A stretch of 57,756 nt of DNA from Escherichia phage vB_EcoS_PJ16, in the sequence record OQ955832.1, one strand, 5' to 3'. The translations under genes were made by a program, and so were the position numbers. The notes beneath the pieces were generated by a model. That model did not search any database. It saw nothing but the letters and a program-made list of their open reading frames with translations, and was not told the DNA's origin. This document shows positions 1-57,756 of this stretch, piece by piece. Within the stretch, counting starts at the first letter, position 1. The number at the start of each line of letters is the position of its first letter.

Positions 1-206
1 TATCTTTTTATAGATAACATAGAAAACATAGATATAAAGAAGAAGTAGTATAGAAAGATAGAGATAGTACATATAGTGTATTAGCTGTAAATAGAGCTAA
101 AATAAAAGTCTGGGGGATACCTATTGTAATCTATGTTTTTATGCAAGTCTTTGAAATCATTGTGATTATGTGTTACGTATTTATGTATGTGATCGAAAAT
201 TAGTGC
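1..206. repeat. AT-rich non-coding repeat region (right half of hub A, continuing from the window end)
   Basis: No RBS-preceded ORF; short direct repeats (catagat, GCAYGTTGTG); positions 1-80 are homologous to 17749-17830. Confidence 0.6.
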
Positions 207-323
207 ATGTTGTGCACTAACTGTAAACTTAATACTAACATTGTATTAACTGTAAAACAGGGCGTGTGGACAACCCGTGGGTATCTGTGGGAAACTAATT
301 TAAAATTTATGGGAGACAAATTT

Positions 324-959
324 ATGAAAATTTCAGACCGGGCTAAAAGGGCTGCTCTGGAGTTAACAACCGATCAACTCCGTTTTGCTAACCTGTGGTT
401 AGATCGTGTCAATAACGGCTTCAGCAACGCTCAGTGCGTCTTACACGCTTATCCGGGACATAAAGACCCTGACGCAGCTAAAGTCACCGCACACCGCCTC
501 CTGTCGAATACGAAGGTGTTGAACTATCTGGACGCGATGGGAAGTCATGCGCTTGAATCTGTCGGGGAATCGTTAACGAGTCGTGTCGAGTGGTGGAAGC
601 GCGCGGCAAGCACGGCTGAAGAATTACTGGAACCGTACTGTCAGCGCGTCATCGTCCCTGGTGAAGACGATACAGAAGCGAAACACCTGTGGGTGAACAG
701 TACCGACGATATCCCCAGCCATCTGCAACAGTACGTAGTTTGCTACAAACGTTACATGCTGGGTGGATACATTCTGGTGACACGTGAACTGTTCGACCCG
801 AAAACTCGTGCAAAAGCGTCTGAACAACTGGATAAGATCACCGGGAACAGTATCGACCGTGTGGAATTGTCTGGCGTGGTTGGTAACGTGGTTCAGAGTG
901 TCCCTGAAGGTGCAACCATCGACGACATTGCGCAACTGTACCAGAAGGCGCTCAAATAA
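324..959 (+). CDS. Terminase small subunit (putative)
   Basis: Track ORF 207-959 trimmed to ATG 324 (GGGAGA 7 nt upstream); N-terminal ELTTDQLRFANLWL resembles TerS DNA-binding segment; terminator follows. Confidence 0.5.
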   Translation: MKISDRAKRAALELTTDQLRFANLWLDRVNNGFSNAQCVLHAYPGHKDPDAAKVTAHRLLSNTKVLNYLDAMGSHALESVGESLTSRVEWWKRAASTAEELLEPYCQRVIVPGEDDTEAKHLWVNSTDDIPSHLQQYVVCYKRYMLGGYILVTRELFDPKTRAKASEQLDKITGNSIDRVELSGVVGNVVQSVPEGATIDDIAQLYQKALK

Positions 960-17171: not shown

Positions 17172-17545
17172 TACGCGCACCTCGATAGTCGTCTTAATTT
17201 AACGATCAACCTTGTGACTTTACTCCAGTCAGATTCAGTAAAGTCGTCCACATCTTTAGCCCATAACTCATTAACATGTCGTGGGTTATATGGTTCTTTC
17301 TTAACTGGCTATTTCCGTTTCTTTTTACCCATAGGTTATAACCCAAGTAAAAGTTTAAGCGCACATTTACGAGCATCGTTGACCATTTTTAATAATTCTT
17401 GTGTATCAATGGTGCGATCAGCGTGTTTAATCAGTTCATTCATACTATTAACCTCTTACTATTCCTACGACCACAGGTGCTGCGAAAATCATGAAAGCCA
17501 GTATGTAGTAAATCATCGCATGTCTCCTTTTTCTTCCTGTTAACC

Positions 17546-17592
17546 ACAGGGTAGTTGTGTCGGTGTAATTTGTCAAGAATTATTTTAAAGAT
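17546..17592 (-). promoter_or_regulatory. sigma70-type promoter with UP element (conserved family), left arm of divergent pair
   Basis: -35 TTGACA (17571-17576), 17-bp spacer, TACCCT; inverted copy of promoter at 17898. Confidence 0.55.
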
Positions 17593-17880
17593 ACAGCTAA
17601 TACAGAACGTGTACTAACTGCACATATTTCTACATAGGTTTCATGATTTTGAGTTGCAGCTAATACAGAACGTGTATTAGTAGATCATAGATTCATAGAT
17701 TTCGTCATGTTTATTTTTTAACCAACCTCTCTCTATCTTATTCTTTTTATTATCTTTTTATAATAAAAAGATAATAAACATAATAAACATAGATAAATAG
17801 AAGAGTAGTATAAGTAGTATAAGTTGCTGCAAGTAGGAGAGGTTTAAAAGGTATAGGGAGTCGCATACTTCCCATGAATC
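17581..17880. repeat. AT-rich non-coding repeat hub B
   Basis: No ORFs; direct repeats cagctaatacagaacgtgta x2, catagat repeats; homologous to window-end/start region. Confidence 0.65.
17746..17778. repeat. Perfect palindrome (16-bp arms, 1-nt centre)
   Basis: tttttattatctttttat a ataaaaagataataaaa read directly; core TTATCT...AGATAA also present at window junction. Confidence 0.8.
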
Positions 17881-17956: not shown

Positions 17957-18304
17957 ATGAATCCGAACATCAGAGTTGCTACAGACGAATTCATTCGTCG
18001 CGCCCGTAAAGTTCACGGTGATCGTTACGACTACTCATTCAGCATTGTTGAAGATAGTTCCAGCACAGTGGTTATTATTGACTGTGAAACTAACACAGTG
18101 TTTTTCCAGGTTGTCGCTGAACATCTGGACGGTGTTGAACCAGTAACGACTGCTGTTGAACCAGTAACGACTGCTGTTGAATCGATCAAGAATCTTTCTG
18201 AGACATTCGGTAACGTTGCAAACAGCGTGTATCACCAGTGCAATTATTCATCTGAAATGTTAGAATTTAGTCATGTTGAAACAATACGAGGACAATCCCC
18301 GTGA
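17957..18304 (+). CDS. Hypothetical protein with degenerate zinc-ribbon-like N-domain and VEPVTTA repeat
   Basis: Track ORF 17927-18304 trimmed to ATG 17957; DEFIRRARKVHGDRYDYS matches N-domain of 26624-27235 protein but lacks Cys ligands. Confidence 0.45.
   Translation: MNPNIRVATDEFIRRARKVHGDRYDYSFSIVEDSSSTVVIIDCETNTVFFQVVAEHLDGVEPVTTAVEPVTTAVESIKNLSETFGNVANSVYHQCNYSSEMLEFSHVETIRGQSP
18134..18175 (+). repeat. 21-bp tandem repeat x2 (in-frame, VEPVTTA)
   Basis: gttgaaccagtaacgactgct repeated exactly. Confidence 0.8.
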
Positions 18305-41724: not shown

Positions 41725-42588
41725 TCAGTAACCGTTACCGTTGAGAAAATTAGGGGCCGGGGTGGTCATTACCATATAACCGTTAGCGATCAGTTGTTCA
41801 TCGTTCCAACCTTGCGCAATAAACTGTTCGTAAGTTGCACCACCTGCTTTTTCAGTCATTACCTTCACAGGCGCTGCTACAGGTGCTGCCGCTGGTGTAG
41901 GCGCTGCTACAGGTGCTGCCGCTGGTATAGGCGCTGCTACAGGTGCTGCCGCTGGTGTAGGCGCTGCTACAGGTGCTGCCGCTGGTGTTACGCCGATCGG
42001 ACGTGCACCTTCAGGCATTGCAGGTGCAGCACCGAACACAGAGGCCGGAGCCGGACCGGAAATGATTTCTTCACCTGCATAAAGCAATTGCGCCATTTCC
42101 ATATTGATATACACACCAGCCTGATTACCTGTACGACCGTTTGCAACAGATGACCCGCTGATACGGTAGTAATACCCTTTTTTCGCCAGATTTTTATCAA
42201 TAACTGGCTGGTACGCTGCGTTATAAACAGGACACGCGTCAATAGCCACGTTGCGTGAGAAACCAATAACCCAGTGACCAGCATAACCCGTTTTACTCGC
42301 ATGTTTCGGATCGTCACCGTTAATAATTTTCCATGCGAAAGTTGGTTGTTGTGGTTCGCCGTTCACATAGTGTGAGTTAGCCGCTCGCATGATCGCCTGG
42401 AATACCGTACCCAGTTCACCTTGTTCTTCCCACCAGTTCGCCGCTGTTTTAGGAAACGCCAGACCAACCCACCAGTTATGTTTTTCAGGTGCTAACGGTT
42501 TATTTTCGTGGTCATGAGTGTTGATGTCGAAAAAAGAACCGCCAACCAGACGACCAACCGGAGTTACAAAAGATTCTTTCTGTGCCAT
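41725..42588 (-). CDS. ssDNA-binding-like protein (DUF2815-like, putative) with Pro/Ala repeat linker
   Basis: N-terminal VTPVGRLVGGSFF pattern; four PTPAAAPVAA repeats; sits between nuclease and polymerase. Confidence 0.4.
   Translation of the reverse strand: MAQKESFVTPVGRLVGGSFFDINTHDHENKPLAPEKHNWWVGLAFPKTAANWWEEQGELGTVFQAIMRAANSHYVNGEPQQPTFAWKIINGDDPKHASKTGYAGHWVIGFSRNVAIDACPVYNAAYQPVIDKNLAKKGYYYRISGSSVANGRTGNQAGVYINMEMAQLLYAGEEIISGPAPASVFGAAPAMPEGARPIGVTPAAAPVAAPTPAAAPVAAPIPAAAPVAAPTPAAAPVAAPVKVMTEKAGGATYEQFIAQGWNDEQLIANGYMVMTTPAPNFLNGNGY
41871..41990 (-). repeat. 30-bp tandem repeat x4 (in-frame, Pro/Ala-rich)
   Basis: gcgctgctacaggtgctgccgctggtgtag repeated with 1-2 substitutions. Confidence 0.85.
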
Positions 42589-55501: not shown

Positions 55502-56071
55502 ATGACACCTGAACAATTCGCAACAGCAGCACACGGTGATCAACTTCGTAAGTATACCAACGACCCATATGTGAACCACTGCCGGAACGTTGCTGAACTG
55601 GTTAAACGCTATGGTGGTACGCCGGATATGGTTACCGCTGCCTGGCTGCATGACGTCGTTGAAGATACGCCCGTGACCGTGGGTGATGTGTGTTCGCAGT
55701 TCGGTGAGACTGTGGCACGTTATGTTGATCAGCTTACTGATGTGAGTCGTCCACACCACGGCAACCGTGTTAAGCGTAAAGCACGGGACATCGACCATTT
55801 ATCACGGGCTGAACCTGTGGTGAAAACTATAAAACTGTGTGATCTGCTGGATAACACATCTTCAATTGACCGACACGATCCGAAGTTTGCTGTAACATAC
55901 CTGGCTGAAAAACAACTCATGCTTGCTCACCTGTCAGACGCCAGTAATCAGGAGTTATACGCGCTTGTTGAGCGTGAATTGTTTAAAGCCAAATACAAAC
56001 TAACGAACGTCCAGTTAACCGCGTTTGACAAACACTACGACGCACTGGTTAAAGCGATGGGGGAGTTGTGA
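55502..56071 (+). CDS. HD-domain phosphohydrolase, SpoT/RelA-hydrolase-like
   Basis: AAHGDQLRK, H-x3-VA and AAWLHDVVEDT match the (p)ppGpp-hydrolase HD signature. Confidence 0.65.
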   Translation: MTPEQFATAAHGDQLRKYTNDPYVNHCRNVAELVKRYGGTPDMVTAAWLHDVVEDTPVTVGDVCSQFGETVARYVDQLTDVSRPHHGNRVKRKARDIDHLSRAEPVVKTIKLCDLLDNTSSIDRHDPKFAVTYLAEKQLMLAHLSDASNQELYALVERELFKAKYKLTNVQLTAFDKHYDALVKAMGEL

Positions 56072-56640: not shown

Positions 56641-56672
56641 CTAAAAAGCGGGGCTAATTACCCCGCTATCTT
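56641..56672. terminator. Bidirectional terminator hairpin
   Basis: Stem agcgggg/ccccgct; T-run on minus strand side after the 56672-57475 gene. Confidence 0.6.
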
Positions 56673-57475
56673 TATTGACCCATCATATCTTTATACATCA
56701 TCAAAACAACATCATCCGGCATATTATCTACATCGCAATGCGGGTTATGTGATAACGCATACAGTCTGATTTTCTCCTTCAAATCGCTGACATCGACTAC
56801 AGGTGCTTCCACTCGTGTTACAGGTGCTTCCACTCGTGATACAGATGCTTCCACTCGTGCTACAGGTGGTTCCACTCGTGCTACAGGTGGTTCCACTCGT
56901 GCTACAGGTGGTTCACAAACCATCACGTTAAACGGTGTTCCGGTGCCTTCGTATTTTTCAAGCAAATCGACCATTACGTTTACACATTCCGGGATCCAGC
57001 CCCGGCGCAAACCATTCTGAATCCAACTGTCAGTAATTGTGTGTTCGTTTAAATTCCTGCGTAACACGTATCTTGCACATTCAAAATTACCGCACATCGC
57101 CTCAAACCGTGTCCACACGTCGTGACCGTGAACAGCTTCCAGGATCTGTGAATCAACGTATCTGACACGTTGCCAGTAGTTATTAGCAAAACGCCTGTGT
57201 GGTAATTTCTGACGCAGTTCGGTAACCGGTATTGTGTGTTTAAGAACAATGTTTTCGTCAGAATGTTGTACTGTCAAGGGTGACAGTGTGAAGTCAGTAA
57301 TCTCTTCAAGAATAATACTGATCGTTTCATATTTAGGATGAAACCTACCGCTTAACCATTGATTGTAACGACCAACAGTTACCTTAACACCTCGACGATT
57401 AAGGTATTCAACAGCATTTTGTACCCCGCCTTTTAAATCTATCAATTCGTCTAAAAGGTTCTTTTTCATTATCAC
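56672..57475 (-). CDS. Hypothetical protein with VEPPVAR heptad tandem repeats (267 aa)
   Basis: Strong RBS AGGAGGGG; 21-bp in-frame repeats near C-terminus. Confidence 0.55.
   Translation of the reverse strand: MIMKKNLLDELIDLKGGVQNAVEYLNRRGVKVTVGRYNQWLSGRFHPKYETISIILEEITDFTLSPLTVQHSDENIVLKHTIPVTELRQKLPHRRFANNYWQRVRYVDSQILEAVHGHDVWTRFEAMCGNFECARYVLRRNLNEHTITDSWIQNGLRRGWIPECVNVMVDLLEKYEGTGTPFNVMVCEPPVARVEPPVARVEPPVARVEASVSRVEAPVTRVEAPVVDVSDLKEKIRLYALSHNPHCDVDNMPDDVVLMMYKDMMGQ
56799..56916 (-). repeat. 21-bp tandem repeat, about 5.5 copies (in-frame)
   Basis: acaggtgcttccactcgtgtt and variants, read directly. Confidence 0.85.
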
Positions 57476-57756
57476 CCCTCCTTATTCAACCACGGGTAAA
57501 GCATAACTCGTGTTGGCAGCTAGTGCAAGATGTGCTTTATATGTTAGTGTATTTACACCTAATGCATGTTGTGCTTTAGCAGCTAGTGCAAGATGCACGT
57601 TGTGTATTAGCTGTTAGTGCACGTTGTGTATCTATGTTGGTACAGCTAATGCACGTTGTGAATTATATAGTGCATATAGTGCATTAAAGTTATACTTAAC
57701 ATAGATTTCGTCATGTTTATTTTTTGATCAACCCCTCATTATCTTTTTATAGATAA
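57476..57756. repeat. AT-rich non-coding repeat region (left half of hub A)
   Basis: Direct repeats GCACGTTGTG x3 plus variants, agctagtgcaagatg x2; 57700-57756 homologous to 17690-17760. Confidence 0.65.
57498..57530 (-). promoter_or_regulatory. Putative sigma70 promoter for 56672-57475 gene
   Basis: Minus strand TTGCAC-17 bp-TATGCT followed by leader ACCCGTGGTT similar to hub B promoters. Confidence 0.4.

What the first reader, a model, noticed from the sequence alone, without database searches (positions are those of the whole stretch)
56799..56916. In-frame 21-bp tandem repeats encoding VEPPVAR heptads
About 5.5 copies of a 21-bp unit with point variants lie within the 56672-57475 gene, giving (V/A)EPPVAR repeats. 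A related VEPVTTA 21-bp duplication occurs at 18134-18175. Such repeats are prone to copy-number variation and could tune a linker, or mark a shared binding motif.
Basis: seen in the sequence. Interest (0 to 1): 0.45.

Follow-up and report, generated by a model that had tools for sequence, protein, structure and literature searches.

The report
Variable proline-rich linker in phage regulator
A 21-base repeat inside a phage gene encodes a floppy proline-rich tether whose length changes from 0 to 13 units between almost identical phages; it is a clear but fairly ordinary case of a slippage-prone linker, sitting in an uncharacterised DNA-binding protein next to the packaging gene.

Summary
Window 56798-56917 (minus strand) holds 5.7 head-to-tail copies of a 21-bp unit, in frame, inside gene 56672-57469. 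The window is the circular genome of Escherichia phage vB_EcoS_PJ16, a 9NA-like siphovirus.

Among about 40 homologues the number of full heptads is 0, 1, 2, 3, 4, 5, 7, 9 or 13. Sasha, Sergei and Solent have identical flanking coding DNA (0/678 differences) but 13, 9 and 2 copies. Arrays are homogenised within each phage. Distant homologues (9NA gp84, SP-062, Klebsiella phages) have only a 3-15 residue non-repeat connector at the same spot.

AlphaFold gives no structure for exactly residues 185-224. These lie between a conserved core and a 41-residue two-helix C-terminal domain. The N-terminal 60 residues have an XRE/Cro helix-turn-helix fold. The type of this domain co-varies with arrays of short operator-like motifs in the roughly 590-bp region shared with the divergent terS gene.

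Best reading: a slippage-driven, length-tolerant, extended linker in a DNA-binding regulator of unknown target. The "related" repeat at 18133-18181 is real and also polymorphic, but shows no significant DNA similarity to this one. GenBank records of Sasha and Sergei already mark the repeat, so novelty is low.

The parts
56798..56917 (-). In-frame 21-bp tandem array, 5.7 units. It encodes residues 185-224: CEPPVAR VEPPVAR VEPPVAR VEASVSR VEAPVTR VEAPV.
   Evidence: TRF; codon-phased units; coordinates; lag-21 self-match 91/97 against at most 45 in shuffles; AlphaFold pLDDT below 50 and no secondary structure for residues 185-224.
56672..57469 (-). Host gene, 265 aa plus stop. It is the homologue of 9NA gp84, Sasha gp81 and Sergei gp91, belongs to PHROG 25538 (function unknown), and equals WKV24601.1 of phage vB_EcoS_PJ16.
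   Evidence: ORF; PHROG E=2.9e-173; relatives; exact match to the PJ16 protein.
57290..57469 (-). N-terminal four-helix domain (residues 1-60) with an XRE/Cro-type helix-turn-helix fold. It exists in exchangeable sequence types: A (MKKNLLDELIDL, as here) and B (MKKNIFKEFADAM).
56921..57247 (-). Conserved central region (residues 75-183) with the invariant LPHRRF motif. Its second half may be a diverged second helix-turn-helix copy.
56675..56797 (-). C-terminal 41-residue two-helix domain (VDVSDLKEKIRLY...NPxCDxDxxPDDVV..YKDM), tethered by the repeat. Conserved in 9NA-type homologues and replaced by a different C-terminus in P0013 and P0014.
   Evidence: Alignment; helices 227-241 and 252-262 at pLDDT about 75; alternative C-termini.
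56647..56667 (.). Terminator-like G+C-rich hairpin found on both strands, directly after the stop codon. It would be shared with the convergent plus-strand operon.
   Evidence: Relatives annotate a terminator at the same place.
57521..57681 (+). Array of six type-A operator-like motifs (TARTGCAYGTTGTG), 50-210 bp upstream of the gene. Type-B phages carry TAATCCTATCATAGT-like motifs here instead.
   Evidence: 7 of the 17 genome-wide matches with up to 3 mismatches lie in this intergenic region, and no shuffle reached 17. Replacement in type-B phages.
200..220 (.). Palindrome TTAGTGCATGTTGTGCACTAA (8-5-8), about 100 bp upstream of terS. It has the same half-site as the gene-proximal array. In 4 of 5 type-B phages a B-like cassette replaces it.
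324..959 (+). terS (small terminase), transcribed divergently from the repeat gene across the junction of the circular assembly.
   Evidence: 17-nt terminal overlap; Bas82 annotation; same gene order in 9NA-type contigs.
18133..18181 (+). The second 21-bp repeat named in the finding: VEPVTTA x2.3 in a DUF723-like gene (17957-18304). It is polymorphic but not demonstrably related to the main repeat.
   Evidence: Three copies in BDX09P1. Plus 21 bp in PDP46 and 536P12. Unit similarity not significant.

Best explanation
The 21-bp array is an in-frame minisatellite. It expands and contracts by whole units, most likely through replication slippage or unequal recombination, much faster than point substitutions accumulate. 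Because 21 is 3 x 7, the reading frame is never lost.

The array encodes a proline-rich stretch with alternating charge, (V-E-[P/A]-P-V-[A/T/S]-R)n. This stretch does not fold. It acts as an extended flexible tether between the core of a DNA-binding protein and a small two-helix C-terminal domain.

The protein is the 9NA gp84-family protein. It has an N-terminal XRE/Cro-type helix-turn-helix domain, and the central region may be a second, diverged copy of it. The protein most likely binds the arrays of short palindrome-like motifs in the roughly 590-bp region between its own gene and terS. That would make it a regulator of its own gene and of terS.

Shown: the repeat, its frame, its polymorphism, its position at a connector, the lack of predicted structure, the fold of the N-terminal domain, and the co-variation of domain type with motif type.

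Inferred: the slippage mechanism, the extended conformation (up to about 0.3 nm per residue, about 2 nm per unit, from polyproline-II geometry), DNA binding to those motifs, and that the C-terminal domain is a partner-contact or self-association module whose reach depends on tether length. Length appears broadly tolerated rather than finely set.
For: 1. Reality and frame.
2. Copy number is 0, 1, 2, 3, 4, 5, 7, 9 or 13 in about 40 homologues, and both N-domain types span the range.
3. Sasha, Sergei and Solent have 0/678 nt differences in the flanks but 13, 9 and 2 copies.
4. Units are homogenised within each phage. This includes a synonymous GAA to GAG change present in every PDP46 unit, the signature of concerted evolution by slippage or recombination.
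5. Homologues at 39-46% identity, together with 9NA gp84, SP-062 and Klebsiella Carvaje, have a 3-15 residue non-repeat connector at the same position.
6. AlphaFold: pLDDT below 50 and no secondary structure for exactly residues 185-224, flanked by helical segments at pLDDT about 70-75.
7. P0013 and P0014 keep the core but carry a different C-terminal domain after a non-repeat Pro-rich stretch that contains EPPV or EPQPV. This indicates a modular, tethered C-terminus.
9. Motif arrays: type-A motifs cluster in the intergenic region. Type-B phages carry a different motif both next to the gene and, in 4 of 5 cases, at the terS-proximal site, with conserved sequence in between. 9NA-type and Klebsiella phages have their own motifs in 4-7 copies. 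TerS is 210/211 identical between the window and BDX09P1 although the gene-proximal array differs, so the array tracks this protein and not TerS.
10. The position divergent from terS is conserved across the group.
Against: - There is no experimental datum on the protein.
- Low pLDDT from a 9-sequence alignment is weak evidence of disorder.
- E2, V5 and R7 are invariant or nearly so, and P4 is 95% conserved, in 94 units. This could mean a sequence-specific role, such as a repeated docking motif, rather than a passive spacer. Recent common origin plus homogenisation would explain it equally well.
- The co-variation of domain type and motifs rests on very few independent exchange events. The gene-proximal array is physically linked to the N-terminal coding region. 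One type-B phage (BDX09P1) keeps the type-A site near terS.
- Pfam HTH_3 is only a sub-threshold hit (E=0.19).
- The function of the C-terminal domain is unknown.
- Long perfect arrays in short-read assemblies may be miscounted.
Confidence: 0.7

Rival explanations
1. Adaptive tuning knob. Tether length is under selection and sets how far the C-terminal domain can reach. One possibility is bridging protein bound at the gene-proximal array and at the terS-proximal site about 400 bp away. Another is contacting RNA polymerase, TerS or a replisome protein. Copy-number change would then rapidly adjust expression or packaging to the host.
For: - Copy number changes very fast relative to substitutions.
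- Binding-site-like motifs lie at both ends of the intergenic region.
- The charged and proline positions of the unit are conserved.
- The same genome carries two further polymorphic Pro-rich in-frame repeats.
Against: - Copy numbers from 0 to 13 all occur in apparently complete phage genomes.
- No association of number with anything else was tested or noticed.
- Distant homologues work with 3-15 residue connectors.
- No phenotype data exist.
Confidence: 0.17
2. Repeated peptide docking motif. Each VEPPVAR unit would be a short linear motif bound by a host or phage partner, for example a polyproline-binding module, so that copy number sets valency. The VEPVTTA repeat would share that partner.
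For: - E2, P4, V5 and R7 are nearly invariant in 94 units.
- Both repeats start with V-E-P and have a 7-residue period.
Against: - The two DNA units are not significantly similar.
- A natural variant with no full unit exists.
- The motif is absent from 9NA, SP-062 and Klebsiella homologues.
- Invariance is expected anyway from recent duplication and homogenisation.
Confidence: 0.07
3. DNA-level element. The 21-bp units (two helical turns) would be protein-binding iterons inside the gene, as the lambda origin iterons lie in the linker-coding part of gene O. Alternatively they would be part of a packaging or replication signal, and the peptide would be a by-product.
For: - The period of 21 bp resembles plasmid and phage iterons.
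- The array lies in a gene for a DNA-binding protein, in its linker-coding part.
Against: - The unit is the same in phages with type-A and type-B N-terminal domains.
- It has no match to the operator-like motif even at 3 mismatches.
- Copy number drops to 0 in some phages and the array is absent from all distant homologues.
- Single-strand folding is unremarkable (z=0.28).
- All observed length changes are whole units, which keep the frame.
Confidence: 0.03
4. Assembly artefact. The differences in copy number come from collapse or expansion of the repeat in short-read assemblies, not from biology.
For: Perfect arrays of 200-290 bp (Sergei, Sasha) exceed typical short-read lengths, and many counts come from metagenome contigs.
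Against: - Arrays of 1-5 units (21-105 bp, about 36-120 bp with the terminal partial unit) fit within single reads and still vary.
- Identical protein variants recur in several independent contigs: P0002 in 12, P0026 in 7, P0028 in 5, P0039 in 4.
- Variant units give distinct internal patterns that collapse cannot produce.
Confidence: 0.03

Closest known systems
TonB proline-rich spacer, (Glu-Pro)n-(Lys-Pro)m, of Gram-negative bacteria (from my own knowledge)
   Same: Proline-rich, charge-bearing, non-globular segment that connects two functional parts of a protein. It is thought to be extended and polyproline-II-like and is largely tolerant of shortening.
   Different: - TonB's segment is not a polymorphic DNA minisatellite of identical units.
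- Its charge is segregated into an acidic block followed by a basic block, whereas here E and R alternate within each heptad.
- It spans the periplasm, whereas this protein is a cytoplasmic DNA-binding protein.
Disordered linker of single-stranded DNA-binding proteins, including the (TPAAAPVAAP)4 repeat in this same genome's Gp2.5-like SSB (window 41869-41988)
   Same: - A Pro/Ala-rich low-complexity tether between a folded core and a short C-terminal interaction module.
- Here it is also encoded by an in-frame tandem repeat whose length differs among relatives.
   Different: Different unit (30 bp, uncharged), a different protein, and no detectable sequence relation to the 21-bp unit.
In-frame variable-number tandem repeats in bacterial genes (the loci used in MLVA typing; repeat-containing surface proteins such as the group B streptococcal alpha C protein) (from my own knowledge)
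   Same: - Unit length is a multiple of three.
- Copy number changes by whole units faster than point mutation.
- Arrays are homogenised.
   Different: Those loci are mostly surface or antigenic proteins under immune or phage selection. This one is in an intracellular phage DNA-binding protein, and no selective agent is known.
Lambdoid immunity-type modules: Cro/CI-type helix-turn-helix repressors with cognate operators that are exchanged together between phages (from my own knowledge)
   Same: An XRE/Cro-fold N-terminal domain. Several palindrome-like sites lie in a divergent intergenic region, and domain type and site type change together.
   Different: - The phage is virulent, and no integrase or lysogeny genes were seen in the parts of the window examined (not searched systematically).
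- The protein is much larger, with a conserved unique core and a tethered C-terminal domain.
- The partner gene across the region is terS.
- Binding has not been shown.
DnaA domain II and the lambda O inter-domain linker (from my own knowledge)
   Same: A variable-length flexible connector in a sequence-specific DNA-binding protein that recruits partners through a separate small domain.
   Different: There is no evidence that this protein is a replication initiator. The origin-in-gene analogy was tested and not met (see the iteron rows of the membership table).

Membership tests
PHROG 25538 / 9NA gp84-like proteins | Significant full-length profile match | tested here: met
   E=2.9e-173, residues 1-221 against profile positions 1-221 of 293. 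tblastn finds homologues in 22 phage records, all 9NA-like.
PHROG 25538 / 9NA gp84-like proteins | Conserved position, divergent from terS across a 550-600 bp intergenic region | tested here: met
   Window (circular junction), Bas82, L009-L011, L019 and L021-L023.
In-frame variable-number tandem repeat | Head-to-tail copies with a unit length that is a multiple of 3 | tested here: met
   Period 21, 5.6-5.7 copies, in frame.
In-frame variable-number tandem repeat | Copy number differs among close relatives while the flanks are conserved | tested here: met
   0-13 units. Flanks 0/678 different with 13, 9 and 2 copies.
In-frame variable-number tandem repeat | Measurable change of copy number within a lineage or during passage | not testable with these tools
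   Needs PCR or long reads on passaged lysates.
XRE/Cro-type helix-turn-helix DNA-binding domain (Pfam HTH_3 and relatives) | Sequence match to a curated family model above threshold | tested here: not met
   No Pfam or NCBIfam family for the full protein. For the isolated N-terminal domain, HTH_3 scores E=0.19 and 12.2 bits against a cut-off of 23.
XRE/Cro-type helix-turn-helix DNA-binding domain (Pfam HTH_3 and relatives) | Four- to five-helix lambda-repressor-like fold | tested here: met
XRE/Cro-type helix-turn-helix DNA-binding domain (Pfam HTH_3 and relatives) | Binds specific, usually palindromic, DNA sites | tested here: inconclusive
   Only indirect evidence: clustered motifs and co-variation of motif type with domain type, with one exception (BDX09P1).
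Proline-rich extended spacer (TonB-like, polyproline-II type) | High proline content with regularly spaced charges and no regular secondary structure | tested here: met
   8 P, 6 E and 5 R in 40 residues. No helix or strand and pLDDT below 50.
Proline-rich extended spacer (TonB-like, polyproline-II type) | Extended polyproline-II conformation in solution | not testable with these tools
   Needs CD, NMR or SAXS.
Coiled-coil heptad repeat | Hydrophobic a/d positions in a continuous alpha helix, without proline | tested here: not met
   One or two prolines in nearly every heptad (the window's VEASVSR unit has none) and no predicted helix. 'Heptad' here means only a 7-residue period.
Origin iterons inside an initiator gene (lambda O / ori type) | The repeat sequence matches the binding specificity of the protein's DNA-binding domain and changes with it | tested here: not met
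   The same unit occurs with type-A and type-B N-terminal domains. It shows no similarity to the operator-like motif at up to 3 mismatches.
Origin iterons inside an initiator gene (lambda O / ori type) | The repeat is retained in all functional homologues | tested here: not met
   Absent in 9NA, SP-062, Klebsiella and metagenomic homologues. Zero full units in P0039.

The most novel reading that the evidence does not exclude
The gp84-family protein would be the so far unrecognised master regulator, or organiser of the terS control region, of 9NA-like phages. It would carry exchangeable DNA-binding specificity cassettes and matching operator arrays at both ends of the terS control region. Its minisatellite tether would be a true evolvability device: slippage would rapidly reset how far the C-terminal effector domain reaches, for example to bridge the two operator clusters or to contact the transcription or packaging machinery. 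That would tune terS or late-gene expression to new hosts.
Probability: 0.1. Interest if true: 0.55.

Novelty: new member of a known kind. Interest (0 to 1): 0.3.

Why it matters
On its own the repeat is a textbook slippage-prone, in-frame minisatellite that encodes a disordered linker.

It has practical uses. It is a fast-evolving marker that can tell apart otherwise near-identical Sashavirus and Nonanavirus isolates. It is also a place where short-read assemblies of these therapeutic-candidate phages may be wrong.

It also draws attention to its host gene. This is a core, uncharacterised protein of the 9NA-like phages with an exchangeable helix-turn-helix domain and matching motif arrays next to terS. 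That gives a concrete starting point for studying regulation in a phage group whose molecular lifestyle is largely unstudied (PMC4153490).

The natural series of 0 to 13 units is a ready-made set of linker-length variants for experiments.

Tried and rejected
**Searches that found nothing useful**
- Pfam and NCBIfam scans of the protein, its parts and distant homologues: no family.
- Profile search of PDB sequences: only chance-level hits.
- Exhaustive profile search of 1.8 billion representative proteins: only 12 hits, all the same small family or stand-alone N-terminal domains, so no functional lead.
- Sigma-70 promoter scan of the intergenic region: no more sites than in shuffles, uninformative.
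- GC-skew profile: follows gene orientation and gives no origin signal.
- Rfam and tRNA scans of the window: nothing.
- Single-strand DNA folding of the array: no unusual structure (z=0.28).

**Literature**
- Zeng et al. 2019 (J Virol 93:e00848-19), the one paper that probably discusses these repeats, is not held.
- The papers read on Sergei (PMC8273493), Bas82 (PMC11990801), PDP46 (PMC12137930) and 9NA (PMC4153490) do not mention the gene or the repeat.
- A general search for in-frame phage repeats gave nothing relevant.

**Ideas rejected**
- Coiled-coil heptads (prolines in the unit).
- Iterons or another DNA-level element in the gene.
- Homology between the 21-bp units at 56.8 kb and 18.1 kb.
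- The 42-aa plus-strand ORF 56803-56931. It exists only because the repeat lacks stop codons in that frame.

**Idea tested and not supported**
- That the palindromes at 17.6 kb are further sites for this protein. They do not change in the type-B phage BDX09P1.

Full report
**What the window is.** The first and last 17 nt of the window are identical, so it is a circular assembly. The protein carrying the repeat is identical to WKV24601.1 of Escherichia phage vB_EcoS_PJ16, whose contig is 57,756 bp, the same length as the window. Its closest relatives are the 9NA-like siphoviruses PDP46, 536P12, AVIO78A, Sergei, Sasha, Bas82, Solent and BDX09P1. The group is virulent and, in 9NA, packages by a pac-site headful mechanism (PMC4153490).

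**The observation.**
- Tandem Repeats Finder reports 56797-56914: period 21, 5.6 copies, 93% matches, score 194.
- At lag 21, 91 of 97 positions self-match. The best 97-nt stretch in 20 shuffled genomes reached at most 45.
- The array lies in the minus-strand ORF 56672-57475.
- The probable start is ATG 57469, 7 nt after an AAGGAGG ribosome-binding site, and this is the start annotated in relatives.
- In codon phase the array is residues 185-224, window 56798-56917: CEPPVAR VEPPVAR VEPPVAR VEASVSR VEAPVTR VEAPV.

In this window position 1 is always V, or C in the first unit.

**Copy-number variation.** I extracted the homologous gene from eight phage records and from two 90%-identity protein clusters.
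- The number of full heptads before the terminal xExPV-VDVSD is 0 (P0039), 1 (seven sequences), 2, 3, 4, 5, 7, 9 (Sergei) and 13 (Sasha).
- Every length difference is a whole number of units.
- Sasha, Sergei and Solent have no nucleotide difference in the 678 nt of flanking coding sequence, yet carry 13, 9 and 2 units. Copy number therefore changes much faster than bases are substituted.
- Arrays are homogenised within a phage: all AEPPVAR in the three Salmonella phages, all VEAPVAR in PDP46, all VEPPVTR in 536P12, all VEPPVSR in AVIO78A.
- A synonymous GAA to GAG change is present in every PDP46 unit. This is the pattern expected from slippage or unequal exchange.
- Across 94 units, V1, E2, V5 and R7 are 98-100% conserved and P4 is 95% conserved. 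Positions 3 (P/A) and 6 (A/T/S) vary.
- Identical variants recur in several independent contigs, and short arrays also vary. Assembly error therefore cannot explain the pattern, though counts for long perfect arrays should be treated with caution.
- The GenBank records of Sasha and Sergei already mark this region as a 'direct tandem repeat region'.

**Where the repeat sits in the protein.**
- Homologues at 39-46% identity lack the repeat. These include 9NA gp84, FSL SP-062 and Klebsiella phage Carvaje. At the same place they have a 3-15 residue non-repeat connector between a conserved core ending in YEGTGTxF and a conserved C-terminal stretch of about 40 residues...IRxxVRQF..NPxCDxDxxPDDVV..YKDM.
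- Two metagenomic relatives, P0013 and P0014, keep the core. They have a non-repeat Pro-rich stretch containing EPQPV or EPPV, followed by a different C-terminal domain.
- AlphaFold (9-sequence alignment) gives a confident four-helix N-terminal domain (residues 1-60, pLDDT about 90) and a moderately confident helical region (114-183). Exactly residues 185-224 have no secondary structure and pLDDT below 50. Two C-terminal helices follow, at 227-241 and 252-262, pLDDT about 75.
- The repeat is thus an expansion of an inter-domain connector, specific to the Sashavirus-like clade.
- With two prolines per seven residues in most units it cannot be a coiled coil.
- With well-mixed E and R it is expected to be an expanded, polyproline-II-like chain. 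That corresponds to roughly 2 nm per unit if fully extended (inference from standard geometry, not measured).

**What the protein is.**
- Pfam, NCBIfam and PDB sequence searches find nothing. PHROGs places it in family 25538, function unknown.
- The family is tiny: 12 representatives among 1.8 billion proteins.
- A separate, moderate-confidence model of the central region (pLDDT 61) again gives weak hits to XRE and POU-specific domains.
- A profile-profile comparison aligns the N-terminal domain with central-region positions 43-93 (P=8e-4, probability 24%). A diverged second helix-turn-helix copy is possible but not established.
- Klebsiella homologues have this central region twice.

**Surroundings.**
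- The gene ends at a terminator-like hairpin found on both strands (56647-56667).
- Across the circular junction it is divergent from terS (324-959), with about 590 bp between them. This arrangement is conserved in Bas82 and in 9NA-type contigs.
- The intergenic region holds six copies of TARTGCAYGTTGTG at 57521-57681 and a palindrome with the same half-site, TTAGTGCATGTTGTGCACTAA, at 200-220.
- 7 of the 17 genome-wide matches with up to 3 mismatches fall in this region, and no shuffle reached 17 matches.

**Co-variation of domain type and motifs.** The N-terminal domain occurs in at least two sequence types among otherwise 90-99% identical proteins: type A (as here) and type B (BDX09P1, P0003 and others).
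- All type-B phages examined have TAATCCTATCATAGT-like motifs in the gene-proximal 200 bp instead of the type-A motifs.
- In 4 of 5 type-B phages the terS-proximal palindrome is also replaced by a B-like cassette, AACCATGATAGGTTA, although about 270 bp in between is shared with type A. BDX09P1 is the exception and keeps the type-A site near terS.
- 9NA-type phages have 6-7 copies of TAGTTTCGTxTAACACnnnGTGTTA, including one next to each start codon. Carvaje has TTTCAGCTTACCAG repeats.
- TerS of BDX09P1 is 210/211 identical to the window's TerS, so the gene-proximal array follows this protein's N-terminal domain and not TerS.

This supports a helix-turn-helix protein that binds arrays at its own promoter and near terS. 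However, the number of independent exchange events is small, the gene-proximal array is physically linked to the N-terminal coding region, and no binding data exist.

**Mechanism and rivals.** The best-supported account is a slippage-driven, frame-preserving minisatellite. It encodes a length-tolerant extended tether between the DNA-bound core and a small C-terminal module, which is probably a partner-contact or self-association domain.
- An adaptive tuning role is possible but not indicated. All lengths from 0 to 13 occur in apparently complete genomes, and distant homologues manage with short connectors.
- A repeated docking motif would explain the invariant E, P, V and R positions, but recent duplication explains them too.
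- A DNA-level role, with iterons inside the gene as in lambda O, fails its tests. The unit does not change with the DNA-binding domain type, does not resemble the operator-like motif, is absent from distant homologues, and drops to zero full units. The array has no unusual single-strand structure.

**The second repeat named in the finding.**
- 18133-18181 is a perfect 2.3-copy 21-bp repeat. It encodes VEPVTTA in a small DUF723-like gene, 17957-18304.
- It is polymorphic as well. BDX09P1 has three copies, and PDP46 and 536P12 are 21 bp longer.
- Its unit is not significantly similar to the main unit: 11 of 21 positions in the best rotation, reached by 15% of shuffles. 'Related' therefore holds only for the period and the first three codons.
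- A third in-frame Pro-rich repeat, 30 bp x 4 = (TPAAAPVAAP)4, lies in the Gp2.5-like single-stranded-DNA-binding protein gene at 41869-41988. The matched span there also differs in length among relatives, and Sasha and Sergei annotate the array as a tandem repeat.
- This phage group evidently tolerates slippage-prone Pro-rich linkers in several proteins.

**Verdict.** This is a new member of a known kind of feature, and it is already flagged in the annotation of two relatives. Interest is modest. The more interesting by-product is the host protein itself and its exchangeable domain-and-operator arrangement next to terS.

Noticed in passing
window 1-17 and 57740-57756: The first and last 17 nt are identical, so the window is a circular assembly of a whole phage genome. 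By exact protein match and contig length it is Escherichia phage vB_EcoS_PJ16.
   Followed up: yes
window 41869-41988 (minus-strand gene 41725-42588): A 30-bp in-frame tandem repeat, 4 copies at 97% identity, encodes (TPAAAPVAAP)4 between the core and the C-terminal part of the Gp2.5-like single-stranded-DNA-binding protein. The length of the matched span differs among relatives, and Sasha and Sergei annotate the array as a direct tandem repeat.
   Followed up: partly
window 17597-17617, 17660-17680 and 17688-17830; also 229-249: A second copy of the core of the terS-upstream region (CATAGATTTCGTCATGTTTATTTTTTAACCAACC... followed by an A/T-rich tract) lies in the divergent intergenic region upstream of the structural genes. 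It is preceded by two 8-5-8 palindromes, CTAATACAGAACGTGTAYTAR. A similar palindrome, TTAATACTAACATTGTATTAA, lies just upstream of terS. These sites do not change in the type-B phage BDX09P1, so they probably serve a different, shared factor.
   Followed up: partly
L008 (Sashavirus BDX09P1), locus 2258-2806: BDX09P1 is a hybrid. It has the type-B N-terminal domain and the type-B gene-proximal motif array, but keeps the type-A site near terS. Four other type-B phages have a B-like cassette there.
   Followed up: partly
L014 (FSL SP-062), locus 281-490: A stand-alone 69-residue copy of the N-terminal helix-turn-helix domain (SP062_00450) lies directly upstream of, and overlaps the start of, the full-length homologue. 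It looks like a remnant or spare specificity cassette. Free-standing N-domain homologues also exist in metagenomes (P0018, P0020).
   Followed up: no
L013 (Klebsiella phage Carvaje), locus 328-1263; P0012: Klebsiella-phage homologues (299-311 aa) carry the central conserved region twice and no proline-rich repeat.
   Followed up: no
P0001 (JGI metagenome protein, 316 aa): Its N-terminus is the translation of the sequence just upstream of terS (window 207-338, plus strand), fused at MKISD|ELIDL to the repeat protein, although the two lie on opposite strands here. It is probably a chimeric or inverted metagenome assembly.
   Followed up: no
window 56803-56931, plus strand: A 42-aa ORF (MLPLVLQVLPLV...) on the opposite strand exists only because the repeat has no stop codon in that frame. 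It is not a gene.
   Followed up: yes
window 55502-56071: A 189-aa HD-domain gene that relatives annotate variously as a RelA/SpoT-family (p)ppGpp synthetase, a metal-dependent phosphohydrolase, or a hypothetical protein (similar to the SP069 putative polyphosphate hydrolase) lies about 600 bp from the repeat gene in the convergent operon. Its homologues in related contigs hit Pfam HD_4.
   Followed up: no
window 57469-57500 and 17516-17555: The 5' leader of the repeat gene and that of a small minus-strand ORF at 17.5 kb (a 22-residue hydrophobic peptide starting at 17516) share a CTCCTT...AACCACrGGTA box. This hints at a common promoter or leader element.
   Followed up: no
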